Shown piece after piece: positions 18,494 to 27,753 of a DNA stretch of 34,670 bases. Every line of letters begins with the position of its first letter. Position 1 is the stretch's first letter. Below the pieces are notes generated by a model, which saw only the letters and a program-made list of their open reading frames with translations, made no database searches and was not told the DNA's origin. A program made the position numbers and the translations under genes. The DNA is from a virus (lineage: Duplodnaviria > Heunggongvirae > Uroviricota > Caudoviricetes), in the IMG/VR virus record IMGVR_UViG_2563366941_000005, one strand, 5' to 3'.

Positions 18494-18521
18494 TTTTCAT
18501 CTGATTATTATTTTTTGGCTC

Positions 18522-18597
18522 GGCCCTTTAGCTCAGTGGTGAGAGCGAGCGACTCATAATCGCCAGGTCGCTGGTTCAAATCCAGCAAGGGCCACCA
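18522..18597 (+). tRNA. tRNA with CAU anticodon (Ile2-lysidine type, ileX/ileZ-like; could be scored as Met)
   Basis: 76-nt cloverleaf: acceptor GGCCCTT/AAGGGCC, D arm GCTC/GAGC, anticodon loop CTCATAA, T loop TTCAAAT, encoded CCA. Confidence 0.85.
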
Positions 18598-18604
18598 TCA
18601 CATA

Positions 18605-18681
18605 CCGCCATTAGCTCATCAGGAAAGAGCGCCAGCCTTCGAAGCTGGTTGCGCGGAGTTCGGGTCCCCGAAGGCGGTTCA
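18605..18681 (+). tRNA. tRNA-Arg-like (anticodon UCG), noncanonical
   Basis: D arm GCTC/GAGC, anticodon stem CCAGC/GCTGG with loop CTTCGAA, T loop TTCGGGT; one acceptor and one T-stem mismatch; 3-prime end TCA instead of CCA. Confidence 0.55.
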
Positions 18682-18694
18682 TTATCTGTATCCT

Positions 18695-18771
18695 GCGTTG
18701 TTAGCTCAGCCGGACAGAGCAATTGCCTTCTAAGCAATCGGTCACTGGTTCGAATACAGTAGAACGCGCCA
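18695..18771 (+). tRNA. tRNA-Arg (anticodon UCU)
   Basis: Acceptor GCGTTGT, D arm GCTC/GAGC, anticodon stem ATTGC/GCAAT with loop CTTCTAA, T loop TTCGAAT, encoded CCA; one acceptor mismatch and a G/A at the T-stem closing pair. Confidence 0.65.
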
Positions 18772-18786
18772 CACTTATTTTCCCTG

Positions 18787-18810
18787 GCTCGCTTTTGCGG
18801 GCTTTTTTTT
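18787..18810 (+). terminator. Rho-independent terminator after the tRNA cluster
   Basis: Stem GCTCGC, loop TTTT, stem GCGGGC (one G-U pair), then T8. Confidence 0.7.
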
Positions 18811-19245
18811 AAATGTCTCACAATTCAGGCGGTTGACTGTTGTCTGGTTTGCGGGGAGTTTGTTAAAAGAAACTGGCATGGTGAATCCCCCTGTGCGGAG
18901 GGGCAATCAGCGAGTAGGTATATGGGATAATCGCGGATTCAGGTGCTGGTACTGAATTCACCGGGAGGCACCCGGCACCATGCAATGGCACATAGTGCCA
19001 CTCTCCAGCCCCTCTCCGGAGGGGCTTTCTTGTGGGCAAAAAAAAGCCCGAGTGGGTTCGGGCAACAGCATGAGATATACATTTTTATAATCGAATGGAT
19101 TTTAACCAGAATTCATAAGGCTGCGCAACTGCGCGGTCTTTTTCGAATTGCGGGCTGTCGTCTCTCTTCTGCCATTGTCCTGTAACTTCCGGACTTCAGC
19201 CCGCTCCTTATTTTACTCACAATATTATCCCGGCCGGGAGGATTC

Positions 19246-21207
19246 ATGGCATTTAAACACTATGACGTGGTCAGGGCGGCATCGCCGTCAGACCTTGCGA
19301 AACGACTGACACAAAAACTGAAGGAGGGGTGGCAGCCATTTGGCAGTCCGGTGGCCATCACGCCTTATACCCTGATGCAGGCCATTGCGGCGGAAGGTGA
19401 TGTCACCACACCTGTGGTGGTGAAGCCGTCGGATGGAGAAGGCGCAGTTATCAGCACTACCAGCAACCCGGAGTATTACTTTGTTGTTGCCCTGGCCGGG
19501 CAGTCAAACGGTATGGCGTATGGTGAAGGGCTTCCGCTGCCGGAGACATATGACCGTCCGGACCCGCGTATTAAACAGCTGGCGCGTCGCAGCACTGTCA
19601 CGCCGGGTGGTGCGTCCTGTAACTACAATGACATTATTCCTGCGGACCACTGCCTGCATGATGTTCAGGATTTGAGTAAGTTTTCACACCCGAAAGCCAG
19701 CGCAGCTCAGTATGGATGCGTGGGGCAGGGATTACATATCGCGAAGAAATTGTTGTCGTTTATTCCGGCGAATGCCGGTATTCTTCTGGTTCCGTGCTGC
19801 CGTGGTGGTTCTGCATTTTTGGCGGGCGATGAAGGTACCTTCAGCGAATCCACCGGCGCAAGCGAGACCTCGGCACGCTGGGGTGTAGATAAGCCACTGT
19901 ACAAGGACCTGCTTACCCGTACTCAGGCCGCACTGAAGGCCAACCCTAAAAATATTCTGCTTGCAGTGGTCTGGATGCAGGGCGAGTTTGATTTGAAACA
20001 GGGTGCATACGCCACTCAGCCGGGGCTGTTTGATTCCATGGTGGAAAAATATCGTTCTGACCTGTCGGAATTCGGAGGTCAGTGTCTCGGGGGCTCTCCG
20101 TCATCAGTTCCCTGGATTTGTGGCGACACGACCTACTACTGGAAGCAGACTTATTCTTCGCAATACGATGCGGTGTATGGTGCATATAAGACGAAATCCG
20201 CAAAAAAAATCTTCTTTGTGCCGTTTATGACGGATGAAAACGGGCGAAATGTGGGTACCAACGAGCCGTCAGAAGATCCGGATGTTGCGGATATTGGGTA
20301 TTACGGAGCCGGTGGTCGAACGGACGCCAAAACCTGGACGACGGCTGACCGTAAAACGCATTTTGGATCATGGGCACGTCGTGGGATTATTTCCGACCGT
20401 CTGGCAACGGCGATTCTTGTGCATGCCGGGAGAACCGCTGAATTCATTACCGGAAAACAGCCTGATACGGTGAAGCCCACCGGACCTTCCGGTGAAGGTA
20501 CGGAGAGAGAGCCGGAAGGTCCGGTCAGTAACCGAACCCTGATGAGTCTGCTGGCGTCCGGCGAAGACCTGGCATCACAGGGCTGGCGCTATTATCACAA
20601 ACCGGCGAGCGGAGACAATGTTAACAAAAACATTGCTGAAGCGGTGGTCAGTGATGCGGGGGCTACGGGAGGTAAGGCCCTGCAACTGAATAAACCGGAA
20701 AACCACATCTGGTTTCTGGAGCATGATGCAGCCGGGCAGGGGGCAGAGTTGCTGAAGAAAGGAGGACGTGTGAGCGTACGGTTTAAGTTGCCGGGTTCAC
20801 TGGTGCCGAATCAGTTTGCCCTGGGCATTTACTGGCAGTTGTCGTCCCTGCCGGAGGGAGTGACGCTGGCAGAGGAAGGCAACGACATGCTGATGTCCTT
20901 CTTCCTGCAGACGGATGCGACGAACCTGAACGCGATGCACCACAAGAAGCCGAATGCGAAGCTGGATACGTTCGGGGTCTTTGATAACGGATGGCACACA
21001 CTGGCTTTTGAGTTTGCCGGAAACAACAGCATTCAGGTGACGCCGGTACTGGATGAGAAACGGGGGACGCCGTTCACACTGGTGAAATCTCCGGCATCAG
21101 GGGCGGCGGACAAACTGCAACTGACAGGCATATCAAAGGCGGCGACATATACGCTGCTGATTGACAGTGTGAAGGTGGAAGTGAACAACGCGGATGCCGC
21201 GGCATGA
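19246..21207 (+). CDS. Prophage sialate O-acetylesterase (NanS-p-like; SGNH/SASA hydrolase)
   Basis: 653-aa ORF; GQSN catalytic motif (VALAGQSNGMAYGEG); GGGAGG SD; located between the tRNAs and the lysis genes as in Stx-phage-like prophages. Confidence 0.75.
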   Translation: MAFKHYDVVRAASPSDLAKRLTQKLKEGWQPFGSPVAITPYTLMQAIAAEGDVTTPVVVKPSDGEGAVISTTSNPEYYFVVALAGQSNGMAYGEGLPLPETYDRPDPRIKQLARRSTVTPGGASCNYNDIIPADHCLHDVQDLSKFSHPKASAAQYGCVGQGLHIAKKLLSFIPANAGILLVPCCRGGSAFLAGDEGTFSESTGASETSARWGVDKPLYKDLLTRTQAALKANPKNILLAVVWMQGEFDLKQGAYATQPGLFDSMVEKYRSDLSEFGGQCLGGSPSSVPWICGDTTYYWKQTYSSQYDAVYGAYKTKSAKKIFFVPFMTDENGRNVGTNEPSEDPDVADIGYYGAGGRTDAKTWTTADRKTHFGSWARRGIISDRLATAILVHAGRTAEFITGKQPDTVKPTGPSGEGTEREPEGPVSNRTLMSLLASGEDLASQGWRYYHKPASGDNVNKNIAEAVVSDAGATGGKALQLNKPENHIWFLEHDAAGQGAELLKKGGRVSVRFKLPGSLVPNQFALGIYWQLSSLPEGVTLAEEGNDMLMSFFLQTDATNLNAMHHKKPNAKLDTFGVFDNGWHTLAFEFAGNNSIQVTPVLDEKRGTPFTLVKSPASGAADKLQLTGISKAATYTLLIDSVKVEVNNADAAA

Positions 21208-21358
21208 TAAAAAAAGGCCGCCAGCAATGAAGGAAAGGGATGAACTGTGTCCACTACATGAATGCTGGCGGCTGGTAAAACGACCACGATGACACCGAAG
21301 TTTGCGATATTTTTCTACAAAAATAAGTAAATCATGTCAACTATCACGGTGAGAAACC

Positions 21359-24754: not shown

Positions 24755-24940
24755 TTACTTAATTATGTAATTCATACCCGAACTCTCTGTTGACAGCCTT
24801 CTTCTGCAGGCTTCAATAACCCACGCTGAAAAGTTTCCTGAACCTTTCAGATCAAGAGCGATGTTAATTTGTTCAATCATCTGGTTTGGAAATCGGATGT
24901 TGCGGGTTGTTGTTCTGCGGGTTCTGTTCTTTGATGACAT
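24755..24940 (-). CDS. Small ribbon-helix-helix-like DNA-binding protein (61 aa)
   Basis: Basic N-terminus then RFPNQMIEQINIALDLKGSGNFSAWVIEACRRRL, consistent with a beta-strand/helix/helix pattern. Confidence 0.45.
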   Translation of the reverse strand: MSSKNRTRRTTTRNIRFPNQMIEQINIALDLKGSGNFSAWVIEACRRRLSTESSGMNYIIK

Positions 24941-25147
24941 AATGTTTCCCCATATTCAGTGTTGCTGATTTGTATTATCTGAAGTTGCTTTTACGTTAAT
25001 TTGACGCAGATCAATTAATACGATACCTGCGTCATAATTGATTATTTCTCGTGGTTTGATGGCGTACACACATGTTGTGATAAACCTTATATAGATGATA
25101 ATCATTATCATTTTCGTGGGTCCTTTCCGGCGATCCGACCGGTTACG

Positions 25148-25159
25148 GGGCGGCGACCT
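25148..25159. other. cos: cosN cohesive-end site (GGGCGGCGACCT)
   Basis: CGGGGCGGCGACCTCGCGGATTTTCACTATTTATGAAAATTTTCCGG closely matches the lambda left end beginning with the 12-nt cohesive sequence; about 185 bp upstream of the Nu1-like gene. Confidence 0.8.
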
Positions 25160-25196
25160 CGCGGATTTTCACTATTTATGAAAATTTTCCGGGATC

Positions 25197-25304
25197 CATG
25201 TCCGGTTTCTCTGCAAGTTAACCATATGAAAAATATAAAAACATGCTTTCCATGAACCGGACATGCGCAAAAAATAGACACTAAAACCGGACATGACCGG
25301 TTTT
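25197..25304. repeat. Candidate cosB terminase-binding repeats (AACCGGACATG x3)
   Basis: AACCGGACATG at 25255-25265 and 25285-25295 (second inside the palindrome AAAACCGG-ACATGA-CCGGTTTT) and inverted at 25197-25207; between cosN and Nu1. Confidence 0.5.
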
Positions 25305-25343
25305 GTTGTGATTGTGAGGTGAGAGTTTTTTGCGAGGTGAGGA

Positions 25344-25853
25344 GTGGCTACGCAGACTGAAGTTGCCAGGCATTTAAGTCTGACCGATCGCCAGCTTCGC
25401 AGATTGCAGAAATTGCCGGGTGCCCCGATATCGAATAAGCGAGGGCAACTGGATCTGGATGCCTGGCGCGATTTTTACATATCGTATCTGAGAAGAAGTA
25501 AAAACGATGTGCCTGATGGCGATAGCGAAGACGACTATGAGGAGAAATTGCTTATTGCCAGATGGGAACTGACAGCAGAACAGGCTGTTACACAGCAGTT
25601 AAAAAATGAGGTGTCAAAAGGAAAACTTATTGACACCGGGTTCTGTATTTTTGCCCTCAGCAAGCTGGCAATGGCGTTATCCAGTACGCTTGATTCCATC
25701 CCTTTATCCATGCAGCGACAGTTTCCTGATTTAACACCGCGCCATCTTGACCATCTGAAAACCCTTATTGCGAAGGGGGCAAATCAGTGTGCGCGGGCGG
25801 GGGATAAATTACCGGATTTACTCGATGAATATATCAGAGCAACAACTGAATAA
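25344..25853 (+). CDS. nu1: Terminase small subunit (lambda Nu1-like)
   Basis: C-terminal alignment by eye with lambda Nu1 (FCIFALSKLAMALSSTLDSIPLSMQRQFPDLTPRHLDHLK). Confidence 0.85.
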   Translation: MATQTEVARHLSLTDRQLRRLQKLPGAPISNKRGQLDLDAWRDFYISYLRRSKNDVPDGDSEDDYEEKLLIARWELTAEQAVTQQLKNEVSKGKLIDTGFCIFALSKLAMALSSTLDSIPLSMQRQFPDLTPRHLDHLKTLIAKGANQCARAGDKLPDLLDEYIRATTE

Positions 25854-27753
25854 TATGATGAGTGCTGTCACAACAGCATTACAGCCCCTGATAAGGGCAT
25901 TGCCGGTGACGCCAGTTGAATGGGCTGATCAAAATTATTATCTGCCTAAAGAATCTTCATATGGTGAGGGAGAATGGAAAACGCTGCCGTTCCAGATCGC
26001 CATCATGAACAGCATGGGGAATGATCAGATCCGGACTGTTAATCTGATTAAATCTGCCCGTGTTGGCTATACAAAGATGTTGCTGGGAGTCGCCGGGTAT
26101 TTTATTGAGCATAAATCCCGAAACAGTCTGCTTTTTCAGCCCACGGATTCTGCCGCTGAAGATTTTATGAAGTCTCACGTGGAGGCGACGATTCGCGATG
26201 TTCCCTGCCTGAAAAAACTTTCTCCCTGGCTGGGACGTAAACATCGTGATAATACCATCACGCTGAAACGCTTTTCATCGGGTGTGGGCTTCTGGTGCCT
26301 GGGCGGCGCTGCCGCCAAAAACTACCGTGAAAAATCCGTGGACGTGGTCTGCTATGACGAACTTTCCTCGTTCGAGCCGGATGTCGAAAAAGAGGGCTCG
26401 CCAACCCTGCTGGGGGATAAGCGTATTGAGGGCTCGGTATGGCCAAAATCCATTCGCGGCTCGACGCCTAAAATAAAAGGCTCCTGCCAGATCGAAAAAG
26501 CGGCCAACGAGTCGGCGCATTTCATGCGTTTTTATGTGCCCTGCCCGCACTGTGGGGAGGCGCAGTATCTGAAATTTGGCGATGAGTCCACGCCTTTTGG
26601 CCTTAAATGGGAGAAGGACAGCCCCGAAAGCGTTTTCTACCTCTGTGAACATCATGGCTGCGTGATCCATCAGTCTGAGCTTGACCAGAGCAACGGGCGG
26701 TGGATCTGTGAAAACACGGGGATGTGGACCCGTGACGGTCTGACGTTTTTCAGCGCCGCGGATAATGAAATTCCGCCGCCGCGCTCCATCACGTTCCATA
26801 TCTGGACGGCGTACAGTCCGTTCACCACCTGGGTACAGATAGTCTATGACTGGCTGGATGCACTGAAAGATCCCAACGGCCTGAAAACCTTTGTGAACAC
26901 CACGCTGGGCGAGACCTGGGAAGAGGCCGTGGGCGAAAAACTCGATCACCAGGTACTGATGGATAAGGTCGTGCATTACACGGCGGCGGTGCCAGCCCGG
27001 GTGGTTTATCTGACGGCGGGCATTGACTCGCAGCGAAACCGTTTTGAGATGTATGTCTGGGGATGGGCTCCGGGAGAGGAAGCCTTTCTGGTGGATAAAA
27101 TCATCATTATGGGGCGTCCCGATGAGGAAGAGACGCTGTTACGTGTGGATGTGGCGATCAACAAAAAATACCGCCATGCAGACGGAACCGAAATGACCAT
27201 TTCCCGTGTCTGCTGGGACACCGGGGGGATCGATGGCGAAATTGTCTATCAGAGGTCAAAAAAACACGGTGTTTTCCGGGTGCTGCCGGTAAAAGGTGCA
27301 TCTGTTTATGGCAAGCCGGTGATCACCATGCCAAAAACCCGCAATCAGCGGGGCGTGTATCTGTGCGAAGTGGGGACGGACACCGCAAAAGAAATTCTCT
27401 ATGCCCGTATGAAAGCCGATCCCACGCCTGCGGATGAAGCCACGTCGTATGCCATCCGTTTTCCTGATGATCCGGAGATTTTTTCGCAGACAGAGGCGCA
27501 GCAACTGGTGGCGGAAGAGCTTGTGGAGAAGTGGGAAAAAGGAAAGATGCGTCTGCTGTGGGATAACAAAAAGCGGCGTAACGAAGCGCTGGACTGCCTG
27601 GTGTATGCCTACGCGGCATTACGTGTGTCCGTGCAACGCTGGCAGCTTGATCTGGCTGTACTGGCAAAATCCCGGGAAGAAGAGACGACCCGGCCAACCC
27701 TTAAAGAACTGGCAGCGAAGCTGTCCGGAGGAGTGAATGGTTACAGTCGCTGA
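25825..27753 (+). CDS. A: Terminase large subunit (lambda gpA-like)
   Basis: Near-colinear similarity to lambda gpA (VEWADQNYYLPKES, KSARVGYTKMLLGV, FWCLGGAAAKNYREKSVDV, HIWTAYSPFTTWVQIV); start at ATG 25825 overlapping the Nu1 end as in lambda. Confidence 0.9.
   Translation: MNISEQQLNNMMSAVTTALQPLIRALPVTPVEWADQNYYLPKESSYGEGEWKTLPFQIAIMNSMGNDQIRTVNLIKSARVGYTKMLLGVAGYFIEHKSRNSLLFQPTDSAAEDFMKSHVEATIRDVPCLKKLSPWLGRKHRDNTITLKRFSSGVGFWCLGGAAAKNYREKSVDVVCYDELSSFEPDVEKEGSPTLLGDKRIEGSVWPKSIRGSTPKIKGSCQIEKAANESAHFMRFYVPCPHCGEAQYLKFGDESTPFGLKWEKDSPESVFYLCEHHGCVIHQSELDQSNGRWICENTGMWTRDGLTFFSAADNEIPPPRSITFHIWTAYSPFTTWVQIVYDWLDALKDPNGLKTFVNTTLGETWEEAVGEKLDHQVLMDKVVHYTAAVPARVVYLTAGIDSQRNRFEMYVWGWAPGEEAFLVDKIIIMGRPDEEETLLRVDVAINKKYRHADGTEMTISRVCWDTGGIDGEIVYQRSKKHGVFRVLPVKGASVYGKPVITMPKTRNQRGVYLCEVGTDTAKEILYARMKADPTPADEATSYAIRFPDDPEIFSQTEAQQLVAEELVEKWEKGKMRLLWDNKKRRNEALDCLVYAYAALRVSVQRWQLDLAVLAKSREEETTRPTLKELAAKLSGGVNGYSR

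What the first reader, a model, noticed from the sequence alone, without database searches (positions are those of the whole stretch)
25141..25343. Lambda-identical cosN with a distinct set of putative cosB repeats
The 12-nt cohesive-end sequence and its flanks are almost the same as lambda, so the virion DNA end lies inside this window and the map can be permuted precisely. The candidate small-terminase binding repeats (AACCGGACATG, three copies, one inverted, one inside a perfect 8-6-8 palindrome) differ from lambda R sites, suggesting different packaging specificity despite a shared nicking site.
Basis: partly seen in the sequence, partly recalled or inferred. Interest (0 to 1): 0.4.

Follow-up and report, generated by a model that had tools for sequence, protein, structure and literature searches.

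The report
Lambda-type cos site, swapped recognition repeats
This is the site where a lambda-like E. coli prophage cuts and starts packaging its DNA: the cut site is lambda's, but the neighbouring repeats and the DNA-binding head of the small terminase have been swapped together for a different, very common type, which is an ordinary way for related phages to avoid packaging each other's DNA.

Summary
GGGCGGCGACCT lies at 25148-25159, with cosQ (GGGTCCT) 30 bp upstream. From bp -30 to +45 the sequence differs from lambda at four positions, and identity collapses from bp 46.

AACCGGACATG occurs exactly three times (25197-25207 inverted, 25255-25265, 25285-25295). A fourth, one-mismatch copy completes the 8-6-8 palindrome.

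The layout matches lambda's cosB. R3 sits at bp 50-61, an IHF-like site at bp 72-84, inverted R2 lies 53 bp after R3, and R1 follows 30 bp later.

The adjacent small terminase is Nu1-like only from about residue 50. Its N-terminal 55 residues are a different sequence family, predicted to have the same MerR-like winged-helix fold as lambda-type TerS and Rpp.

All 30 loci examined that encode this domain carry a CCGGTT site at the same distance from cosQ. These loci come from E. coli, Klebsiella, Salmonella, Citrobacter, Enterobacter, Pseudomonas, Aeromonas and Microbulbifer. Residue 20 of the recognition helix tracks the base two positions upstream of CCGGTT: Arg with G, Asp/Asn/Ser/Thr with T.

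The cassette occurs in about 22% of complete E. coli genomes and in plaque-forming PhiR12 phages.

Verdict: a real cos site with a third common cosB/TerS specificity cassette, and a new member of a known kind. Binding and specificity remain untested.

The parts
25118..25124 (+). cosQ heptamer GGGTCCT (packaging-termination subsite), bp -30..-24
   Evidence: Same sequence and same distance from cosN as the cosQ annotated in phage 21 (OL657228) and as in lambda. Invariant in 12 enteric relatives.
25148..25159 (+). cosN: the 12-nt cohesive-end sequence GGGCGGCGACCT. The predicted left end of virion DNA is base 25148.
   Evidence: Single exact match in the window. Identical to the first 12 bases of lambda and phage 21.
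25170..25189 (+). Conserved cosN-cosB spacer block CACTATTTATGAAAATTTTC (bp 23-42)
   Evidence: Near-identical in lambda, phage 21 and all enteric relatives, and recognisable in N15 and the Aeromonas phage. Its role was not examined.
25197..25208 (+). R3-equivalent CATGTCCGGTTT (bp 50-61; core CCGGTT at bp 55-60)
   Evidence: Lies where lambda and phage 21 R3 (bp 50-65) and N15 R3 (bp 48-59) lie (PMC4669245, PMC9026076). Invariant in E. coli variants. The cosQ-to-CCGGTT distance is 83-86 bp in 21 of the 23 loci measured; one more gives 79 bp, one 93 bp.
25219..25231 (-). I1-equivalent IHF-like site (minus strand TTTCATATGGTTA, 2 mismatches to WATCAANNNNTTR) followed by an A/T tract
   Evidence: Relatives have 0-1-mismatch IHF consensus sites at the same offset (17 bp from the CCGGTT start) and on the same strand; Klebsiella and E. 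coli P0013 match perfectly. Same place and strand as I1 annotated in phage 21. The pattern is not enriched window-wide.
25254..25265 (-). R2-equivalent (minus strand CATGTCCGGTTC), inverted relative to R3
   Evidence: The R3-to-R2 spacing is exactly 53 bp in all 16 enteric loci, although the spacer sequence has diverged.
25284..25295 (-). R1-equivalent (minus strand CATGTCCGGTTT), in the orientation of R2 and 30 bp after it
   Evidence: A third site in the same orientation is present in E. coli RM8082 and Enterobacter (30 bp after R2) and in Klebsiella (42 bp). It is absent from several Salmonella and Citrobacter loci.
25292..25303 (+). R1' : a one-mismatch copy CATGACCGGTTT in the R3 orientation. 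It overlaps R1 through the shared CATG and creates the palindrome at 25283-25304.
   Evidence: Kept in ST131, where R1 itself carries a substitution. Lost in RM8082, Klebsiella and Enterobacter.
25344..25853 (+). terS (small terminase, 169 aa, GTG start). Residues 1-55 are a non-Nu1 winged-helix DNA-binding domain. Residues ~50-166 form the Nu1-like oligomerisation and TerL-binding part.
25825..27753 (+). terL (large terminase, gpA type), overlapping the end of terS
   Evidence: 66% identical to lambda gpA over 639 residues. Pfam GpA_ATPase and GpA_nuclease. RefSeq uses this start in the identical prophage.

Best explanation
The region is the cos site of a lambda-like prophage that lies next to mlrA in E. 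coli.

The large terminase, a gpA homologue, would nick at cosN (25148-25159) and produce lambda's 12-nt cohesive ends. cosQ (25118-25124) would serve packaging termination.

The CATGTCCGGTT repeats are the cosB sites read by the winged-helix N-terminal domain of the small terminase encoded immediately downstream. A dimer of that domain would bridge R3 (bp 50-61) and the inverted R2 (53 bp away) across an IHF-induced bend at bp 72-84. This would anchor TerL at cosN. R1 (with R1') would be an accessory site on the same DNA face as R2.

Relative to lambda, cosB from bp 46 and the first ~60 codons of terS have been replaced as one cassette. The phage therefore keeps lambda's cutting chemistry and head machinery, but should recognise only DNA carrying CCGGTT-type R sites.

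Status of each step: the sequence anatomy, the conservation, the co-occurrence and co-variation with the TerS domain, and the predicted fold are shown here. DNA binding, IHF bending, the position of the virion ends and discrimination against lambda or phage 21 DNA are inferred.
For: 1. The cos backbone is lambda-like. The cohesive end is identical, only 4 differences occur between bp -30 and +45, and identity breaks sharply at bp 46.

2. The positions match the curated phage 21 annotation (R3 50-65, I1 74-86, R2 107-122, R1 150-166) and published lambda and N15 data. In those phages R3 bp 54/55-60/63 are contacted by TerS and the cosN-R3 distance is critical (PMC9026076, PMC4669245). The conserved CCGGTT core here lies at bp 55-60.

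3. Phylogenetic footprint: in E. coli variants 83-96% identical, the R sites are invariant while the spacers change. Across 12 enteric loci the conserved blocks are cosQ, cosN, the spacer block, R3, the IHF site and R2.

4. All 30 loci encoding this N-terminal domain carry CCGGTT sites. The cosQ-to-site distance is 83-86 bp in 21 of 23 loci measured (79 and 93 bp in the other two). The R3-R2 spacing is exactly 53 bp in 16 of 16 enteric loci.

5. Residue 20 of the predicted recognition helix (residues 15-22) is Arg in the 11 loci whose sites read atGtCCGGTT. It is Asp, Asn, Ser or Thr in the 19 loci whose sites read t/cTtCCGGTT. There is no exception.

7. The TerS C-terminal part and TerL are clear Nu1 and gpA homologues.

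8. PhiR12_1 to PhiR12_5, deposited as phages grown on K-12 or E. coli C, carry the same cos region (97.7% identical) and the same TerS (99.4%). The cassette therefore works in viable phages.
Against: No physical data exist. The PhiR12 records are not permuted at cos, so their ends were not reported.

The window's own IHF-like site has 2 mismatches, and such matches are not enriched in the window.

The Arg20/G co-variation may rest on only one or a few evolutionary events, because the Arg20 domains are each other's closest relatives.

R1 is oriented opposite to lambda's R1 and is missing in several relatives, so its role is uncertain.

The 5' half of the R site equals that of phage 21, and N15 terminase is known to package lambda DNA (PMC4669245). 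Full exclusivity of specificity therefore cannot be assumed.

Sequence-level homology of the N-terminal domain to Nu1 is not established (hhalign probability 19%).
Confidence: 0.8

Rival explanations
1. The repeats are diverged phage 21-type R sites, so the phage shares phage 21's packaging specificity rather than having its own.
For: The phage 21 R sites are CGTGTCGGTACT, CATGTCGGACCT and CATGTCGGGCCT. They share CATGTC and 8-9 of 12 positions with CATGTCCGGTTT. The R3-R2 spacing is similar, 55 versus 53 bp. In the weak hhalign register (window residue n = lambda residue n+1), phage 21 gp1 also has Arg at the residue matching Arg20, while lambda has Asn (sequences).
Against: The TerS N-terminal domains show no BLASTP similarity; the alignment with gp1 starts at residue 64. 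When aligned by distance from cosN, the shared CATGTC is shifted 3 bp, and the 3' halves differ (CGGTTT versus GGnCCT). In lambda and phage 21, single changes at bp 56 and 59 and shifts of 3 bp are severe (PMC4669245, PMC9026076). The invariant core of this family, CCGGTT, is absent from phage 21 sites.
Confidence: 0.08
2. The palindrome at 25283-25304 is primarily a transcript feature, such as a weak bidirectional intrinsic terminator or an RNA hairpin ahead of terS, rather than a protein-binding site.
For: The consensus scan scores it as terminator-like on both strands, with 8-9 pairs, 4 G-C pairs and a 6-nt loop. The RNA fold contains this hairpin, at -16.8 kcal/mol for the 76-nt stretch.
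Against: The fold is not exceptional: z = -1.76, and 10 of 200 shuffles fold as well. The T run is mostly inside the stem. The palindrome is destroyed in RM8082 and absent in Klebsiella and Enterobacter, while the R1 copy itself is kept. Late transcripts are Q-antiterminated; a Q gene is present upstream.
Confidence: 0.12
3. The repeats bind a protein other than TerS, for example the small ribbon-helix-helix-like YlcI/YnfO protein encoded on the opposite strand at 24755-24940, or a host regulator.
For: The YlcI/YnfO (DUF3950) gene lies about 200 bp from cos, and such genes lie next to cos in many prophages.
Against: The CCGGTT sites follow the TerS N-terminal domain into Pseudomonas, Aeromonas and Microbulbifer loci, where the region just upstream of the site looks unrelated. 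Gene content there was not annotated, so a YlcI/YnfO homologue is not formally excluded. The sites co-vary with a TerS residue. The ST131 and RM8082 loci keep the sites with no YlcI/YnfO gene annotated next to them.
Confidence: 0.04
4. The site is an inactive relic: the prophage is defective and this cos is no longer used.
For: Many E. coli lambdoid prophages are cryptic. One O157 copy has a frameshifted terL.
Against: In this window terS, terL and the downstream head genes are intact, and the prophage has int, xis, a repressor, Q and lysis genes. Near-identical cassettes occur in plaque-forming PhiR12 phages.
Confidence: 0.1

Closest known systems
Bacteriophage lambda cos (cosQ-cosN-cosB with R3-I1-R2-R1) and terminase Nu1/gpA
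   Same: The 12-nt cohesive end is identical. cosQ is identical and at the same distance. bp -30..+45 are nearly identical. R3 sits at about bp 50-61, with an IHF-like site between R3 and an inverted R2. terS starts about 195 bp from the end. The TerS C-terminal part is 46% identical to Nu1 and TerL is 66% identical to gpA.
   Different: The R sequence is CATGTCCGGTTy, not CGTTTCCkTTCT. The TerS N-terminal domain is not matched by the Nu1 Pfam model or by BLASTP. R1 has the orientation of R2, not of R3. An extra overlapping copy forms a palindrome.
Phage 21 cos and gp1, the classic case of the same cosN with a different cosB specificity
   Same: cosQ and cosN are identical. The layout is R3-I1-R2-R1 with similar spacings. 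The 5' half of the R site (CATGTC) is shared. This is the same logic of specificity switching by exchange of cosB plus the TerS DNA-binding domain (PMC4669245).
   Different: The 3' half of the R site differs, and the shared part is shifted 3 bp. The N-terminal domain shows no detectable sequence similarity. The R1 orientation differs.
N15 / Monarch group: one TerS specificity with a simple cosB (single R3 plus a remote rR2 inside terS) in some phages and a complex cosB in others
   Same: The CCGGTT family shows the same split. Enteric members have a complex cosB. Pseudomonas, Aeromonas, Microbulbifer and E. coli 705R4 members have one site or a tandem site just before terS. Nine of 13 of these also have an inverted copy inside terS about 195-205 bp away, compared with 201 bp in N15 (PMC4669245).
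   Different: The R sequence is unrelated to N15's GAGGTTGTTGTT, and the DNA-binding domain belongs to a different sequence family.
PICI cos sites and Rpp proteins (EcCICFT073 and relatives)
   Different: Here the domain is part of a full-length TerS with a TerL-binding C-terminus, inside a complete prophage with its own head genes. There is no separate Rpp gene. Sequence identity to RppC is only 16%.

Membership tests
Lambda-like cos site (as defined by Feiss: 12-base 5' cohesive ends similar to lambda's, with cosQ, cosN and cosB subsites) | [quoted passage not shown] | tested here: met
   12 of 12 identical at 25148-25159. That the ends are actually cut here is not testable with these tools.
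Lambda-like cos site | Conserved 7-bp cosQ about 30 bp left of cosN | tested here: met
   GGGTCCT at 25118-25124, the same offset as in lambda and phage 21.
Lambda-like cos site | cosB: TerS-binding R3 at about bp 48-65, IHF site I1, inverted R2, and R1 | tested here: met
   R3 at bp 50-61, I1-like at bp 72-84, R2 at bp 107-118 inverted, R1 at bp 137-148. The R1 orientation differs from lambda. Binding itself was not tested.
Lambda-like cos site | Virion DNA with unique cohesive ends (not headful packaging) | not testable with these tools
   Inferred from the gpA-type TerL (66% identical) and from the conserved cosQ and cosN.
Nu1-family small terminase (Pfam PF07471) | Match to the whole Nu1 model, including the N-terminal wHTH domain | tested here: not met
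   The match passes the cut-off (67.9 bits) but covers only residues 49-150 = model positions 62-163. BLASTP to Nu1 and gp1 starts at residues 73 and 64. The protein is therefore a chimera: Nu1 family in its C-terminal two-thirds only.
Winged-helix (MerR-like) TerS DNA-binding domain fold, as in lambda gpNu1 and Rpp | Helix-turn-helix, wing and third helix, superposable on solved TerS and Rpp domains | tested here: met
Lambda packaging specificity | R sites matching CGTTTCCkTTCT | tested here: not met
   1 of 13 identical at bp 48-60 when aligned by distance from cosN.
Phage 21 packaging specificity | R sites matching CaTGTCGGnCCT, read by the gp1 recognition helix | tested here: not met
   Only the 5' CATGTC is shared, and it is displaced 3 bp. 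The TerS N-terminal domain shows no similarity. Functional cross-packaging was not tested.
N15/Monarch packaging specificity | R3 matching GAGGTTGTTGTT at bp 48-59 | tested here: not met
   No resemblance. N15 TerS aligns only from residue 59.

The most novel reading that the evidence does not exclude
The CCGGTT-type TerS domain and its sites form a distinct, undescribed packaging-specificity group of lambda-like phages. In E. coli it is about as common as the phage 21 type. It extends to Pseudomonas, Aeromonas and Microbulbifer.

It has a readable one-residue/one-base recognition rule: Arg20 with G two bases 5' of CCGGTT, and Asp/Asn/Ser/Thr20 with T.

It also independently repeats the N15/Monarch split into complex and simple cosB forms, including a remote inverted site inside terS. 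This would argue that the N15 rR2 type of element is functional rather than accidental.
Probability: 0.5. Interest if true: 0.45.

Novelty: new member of a known kind. Interest (0 to 1): 0.3.

Why it matters
It fixes the predicted genome end of a prophage type present in roughly a fifth of complete E. coli genomes, including O157:H7 and ST131, so these prophages can be mapped in virion orientation.

It adds a third common cosB/TerS cassette beside the lambda and phage 21 types. Strain AR_0013 carries both this type and the 21 type. That fits the idea that co-resident lambdoid prophages share the cutting site but keep separate recognition.

The comparative data give a concrete, cheap test of a protein-DNA recognition rule (Arg20 with G). 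They also give a second natural example of the simple versus complex cosB split known from N15 and Monarch.

It is not a new mechanism.

Tried and rejected
- Searching the paper library for the repeat sequence found only unrelated hits such as p53 sites and primers.
- Searches for the source paper of the PhiR12 phages found nothing.
- The most relevant Feiss-laboratory papers are not held (Sippy 2015, Feiss 2010, Feiss 2015 Virology, Vahanian 2017). Prior description of this cosB type therefore cannot be excluded.
- phmmer of TerS against PDB sequences gave no meaningful hit.
- NCBIfam gave none.
- Pfam on residues 1-61 gave only a sub-threshold Sigma70_r3 hit.
- The IHF consensus with up to 2 mismatches is not enriched in the window, 314 matches against 301 expected. 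The I1 assignment therefore rests on position and on better sites in relatives.
- The genome-contig scan returned only 10 loci, mostly Pseudomonas. Enteric relatives had to be fetched one by one.
- Chance was considered and rejected as the origin of the repeats. YlcI/YnfO was considered and rejected as the binder (see rivals).

Full report
OBSERVATION. The window contains one copy of lambda's cohesive-end sequence, GGGCGGCGACCT, at 25148-25159. Taking 25148 as bp 1, the cosQ heptamer GGGTCCT lies at bp -30..-24 (25118-25124). This is the same place as in lambda and in the curated phage 21 record. Between bp -30 and +45 the window differs from lambda at four positions only (-17, -8, +18, +24). 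From bp 46 identity collapses, to 1 of 13 at bp 48-60.

The 11-mer AACCGGACATG occurs exactly three times: 25197-25207 on the minus strand, 25255-25265 and 25285-25295. A fourth copy with one mismatch lies at 25292-25302 on the minus strand. None of 100 shuffles reached four matches. The fourth copy overlaps the third through CATG and produces the 8-6-8 palindrome at 25283-25304.

CONTEXT. The window is a lambdoid prophage integrated next to mlrA in E. coli. It carries int/xis, a repressor, Q, three tRNA genes and lysis genes. After cos come terS, terL, W, portal, protease, D, E, FI and tail genes, as annotated in the 100%-identical prophage of strain 19AR1724. TerL (25825-27753) is 66% identical to lambda gpA over its whole length and has both gpA Pfam domains.

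ANATOMY COMPARED WITH KNOWN cos SITES. The phage 21 record annotates R3 at bp 50-65, I1 at 74-86, R2 at 107-122 (inverted) and R1 at 150-166. Here the copies lie at bp 50-61 (R3 orientation), 107-118 (inverted), 137-148 (inverted) and 145-156 (R3 orientation, one mismatch). terS starts at bp 197, against 191 in lambda and 189 in phage 21.

Published work shows that lambda TerS contacts R3 bp 55-63 and that N15's critical bases are bp 54-59. It also shows that shifting R3 by 3 bp is severely deleterious (PMC9026076, PMC4669245). The invariant CCGGTT core identified below lies at bp 55-60.

Between R3 and R2, at bp 72-84 (25219-25231), the minus strand reads TTTCATATGGTTA. This has two mismatches to the IHF consensus and is followed by an A/T tract. 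On its own this means little, because such matches are not enriched in the window. However, relatives carry 0-1-mismatch sites at exactly the same offset and on the same strand. It is also the position and strand of I1 in phage 21.

THE SMALL TERMINASE IS A CHIMERA. The Pfam Nu1 model matches only residues 49-150. BLASTP to lambda Nu1 aligns residues 73-164 (46% identity), and to phage 21 gp1 residues 64-166 (40%). Nothing aligns in the N-terminal part.

In the phage collection, lambda, 434, phage 21, phi80, N15 and Gifsy-1 match only the C-terminal part. Full-length matches are limited to the PhiR12 phages, Pseudomonas phage LPPA33, Aeromonas phages phiARM81ld and PhAER-1, E. coli phage 705R4 and Vibrio phage HY01.

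The N-terminal domain (consensus MATQxEVAxHLxL[ST]xRQ[LV]RxL ... RG..D.DA[WC]R..YI.YL) is thus a separate module. It is joined either to a Nu1-like C-terminus or to a different one.

DO THE REPEATS BELONG TO THIS DOMAIN? Three lines of comparative evidence say yes.

First, in E. coli variants of the region the R sites are unchanged while the spacers carry the substitutions. These variants are 83-96% identical and include O157:H7, ST131 and a murine isolate. In a 12-sequence alignment of enteric loci, the conserved blocks are cosQ, cosN, the bp 23-42 block, R3, the IHF site and R2.

Second, every one of 30 loci that encode this N-terminal domain has a CCGGTT site. The loci are from E. coli, Klebsiella, Salmonella, Citrobacter, Enterobacter, Pseudomonas, Aeromonas, Microbulbifer and Escherichia whittamii. 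In 21 of the 23 loci measured, the first CCGGTT lies 83-86 bp from cosQ; the two exceptions give 79 and 93 bp. In all 16 enteric loci the inverted second site is exactly 53 bp further on, although the intervening sequence has diverged.

Third, the base two positions 5' of CCGGTT follows residue 20 of the predicted recognition helix. It is G in the 11 loci with Arg20 (sites a-t-G-t-CCGGTT). It is T in the 19 loci with Asp, Asn, Ser or Thr (sites t/c-T-t-CCGGTT). There is no exception. Arg-guanine contacts are a standard major-groove read-out. The direction also fits: the C-terminal half of the helix faces the 5' side of the site, as published for lambda TerS (PMC9026076).

One caveat applies to the third point. 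The Arg20 domains are each other's closest relatives, so the number of independent switches may be small.

COMPLEX AND SIMPLE FORMS. Enteric members have R3-I1-R2, sometimes with R1. When present, R1 has the orientation of R2 and lies 30 bp (this window, RM8082, Enterobacter) or 42 bp (Klebsiella) after it, that is three or four helical turns. Lambda's R1 has the orientation of R3 (PMC4669245, PMC9026076), so this is a real architectural difference.

The Pseudomonas, Aeromonas, Microbulbifer and 705R4 relatives have only one site, or a tandem TTCCGGTTCCGGTT, 12-27 bp before the terS start codon. In 9 of 13 of them an inverted TTCCGGTT lies inside terS at nucleotides 173-182, about 195-205 bp from the first site. 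This mirrors N15's R3 and rR2, which are 201 bp apart (PMC4669245).

THE PALINDROME. A consensus scan calls it terminator-like on both strands, but the RNA fold is unremarkable, with z = -1.76. The palindrome is not conserved: RM8082, Klebsiella and Enterobacter keep the R1 copy without its partner, while ST131 has a substitution in R1 but keeps R1'. I read it as two overlapping R half-sites rather than a transcript signal, with modest confidence.

RELATION TO PHAGE 21. The phage 21 R sites (CGTGTCGGTACT, CATGTCGGACCT, CATGTCGGGCCT) share CATGTC with the repeat here. The 3' halves differ, and the shared part lies 3 bp closer to cosN in this window. The two DNA-binding domains have no detectable sequence similarity.

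The sites of the Asp/Asn20 subgroup (CATTTCCGGTTT) resemble lambda R3 (CGTTTCCGTTCT) at 9 of 12 positions. All these R sites may therefore descend from one ancestral site. That is inference only.

DISTRIBUTION AND FUNCTION. The cosB plus 5'-terS cassette is found in 1186 of 5426 complete E. coli genomes. With cosN and all of terS included, the count is 1314. The lambda-type cassette is found in 4022 genomes and the 21-type in 1450. Strain AR_0013 carries both this type and the 21 type.

Five PhiR12 phages, deposited as complete genomes with K-12 or E. coli C as host, carry the cos region at 97.7% identity and TerS at 99.4%. This indicates that the system supports viable phage. Their records are not permuted at cos, so they give no evidence about the ends.

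LITERATURE. The papers I could read describe the lambda, phage 21, N15/Monarch, phi80 and Gifsy-1 cosB types and the PICI cos sites (PMC4669245, PMC9026076). Neither paper names a CCGGTT-type cosB in the sections and passages I read, which covered only part of each. Full-text searches for the repeat sequence returned nothing relevant. Several key papers are not held, so prior description cannot be excluded.

VERDICT. The mechanism proposed is the established lambda one. The new elements are the identity of the specificity cassette, its breadth, and a candidate recognition rule. It is a new member of a known kind. Interest is modest.

Noticed in passing
L012:337-346, L013:251-260, L014:251-260, L015:882-891, L017:1373-1382, L022, L023, L024, L025 (about nt 173-182 of terS): In relatives with a single upstream CCGGTT site, an inverted TTCCGGTT lies inside terS. 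It encodes a Pro-Glu pair in the otherwise variable linker, about 195-205 bp from the upstream site. This is the arrangement described for N15 R3 and rR2. It is present in 9 of 13 such loci and absent from the window's terS.
   Followed up: partly
window 25139-25144: A window-specific A-to-C change at bp -8 creates an extra CCGGTT in the left flank of cosN (GACCGGTTACG; lambda has GACAGGTTACG). It is not present in the other E. coli variants examined, so it is probably coincidental.
   Followed up: partly
window 25312-25323 and 25330-25341: There is a direct repeat TTGTGAGGTGAG / TTGCGAGGTGAG just upstream of the GTG start of terS. The second copy contains the likely ribosome-binding site. The first is conserved in E. 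coli variants, and its function is unknown.
   Followed up: no
window 24755-24940 (minus strand): A 61-aa YlcI/YnfO-family (DUF3950) ORF lies about 200 bp left of cos. Similar genes sit next to cos in other copies of this cassette, but not in all.
   Followed up: partly
L030 (Citrobacter, P0034 locus) bp ~600-640; L007 (E. coli RM8082) 588-600: cosN and cosB reassort independently. The Citrobacter prophage combines N15's cohesive end and flank (GGGCGGCGTCCGCGCAGATTCTCGCTAT) with CCGGTT-type R sites. RM8082 has GGGCGGCAGCGG with the same R sites as the window.
   Followed up: partly
window 25170-25189: The block CACTATTTATGAAAATTTTC between cosN and cosB is conserved in lambda, phage 21, all enteric relatives and, in recognisable form, in N15 and the Aeromonas phages. 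This is more conserved than a mere spacer would need to be.
   Followed up: no
L026 (Endozoicomonas MAG) 770-990: Immediately upstream of a gene with this N-terminal domain lies an ORF beginning MLVNQKQLAEILGNTTRHIRRMTDEGMPIHGRKGKE. This resembles the lambda Nu1 DNA-binding domain, so two different TerS-type DNA-binding domains may sit in tandem.
   Followed up: no
window about 18520-21210 (from the annotation of the identical prophage, L033 18646-21331): Downstream of the Q antiterminator gene, and upstream of the lysis genes, lie three tRNA genes (Ile, Arg, Arg) followed by a SASA-family carbohydrate esterase gene. The prophage sits next to mlrA. From my own knowledge, not checked here, this layout and this integration site are typical of Stx-phage-like prophages. 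No toxin gene is annotated.
   Followed up: no
(E. coli genome collection): nohD and nohA annotated in many E. coli genomes match the lambda cosB/Nu1 cassette at 99.7% identity. The lambda-type cassette is present in 74% of complete genomes, the 21 type in 27% and the type described here in 22%.
   Followed up: partly
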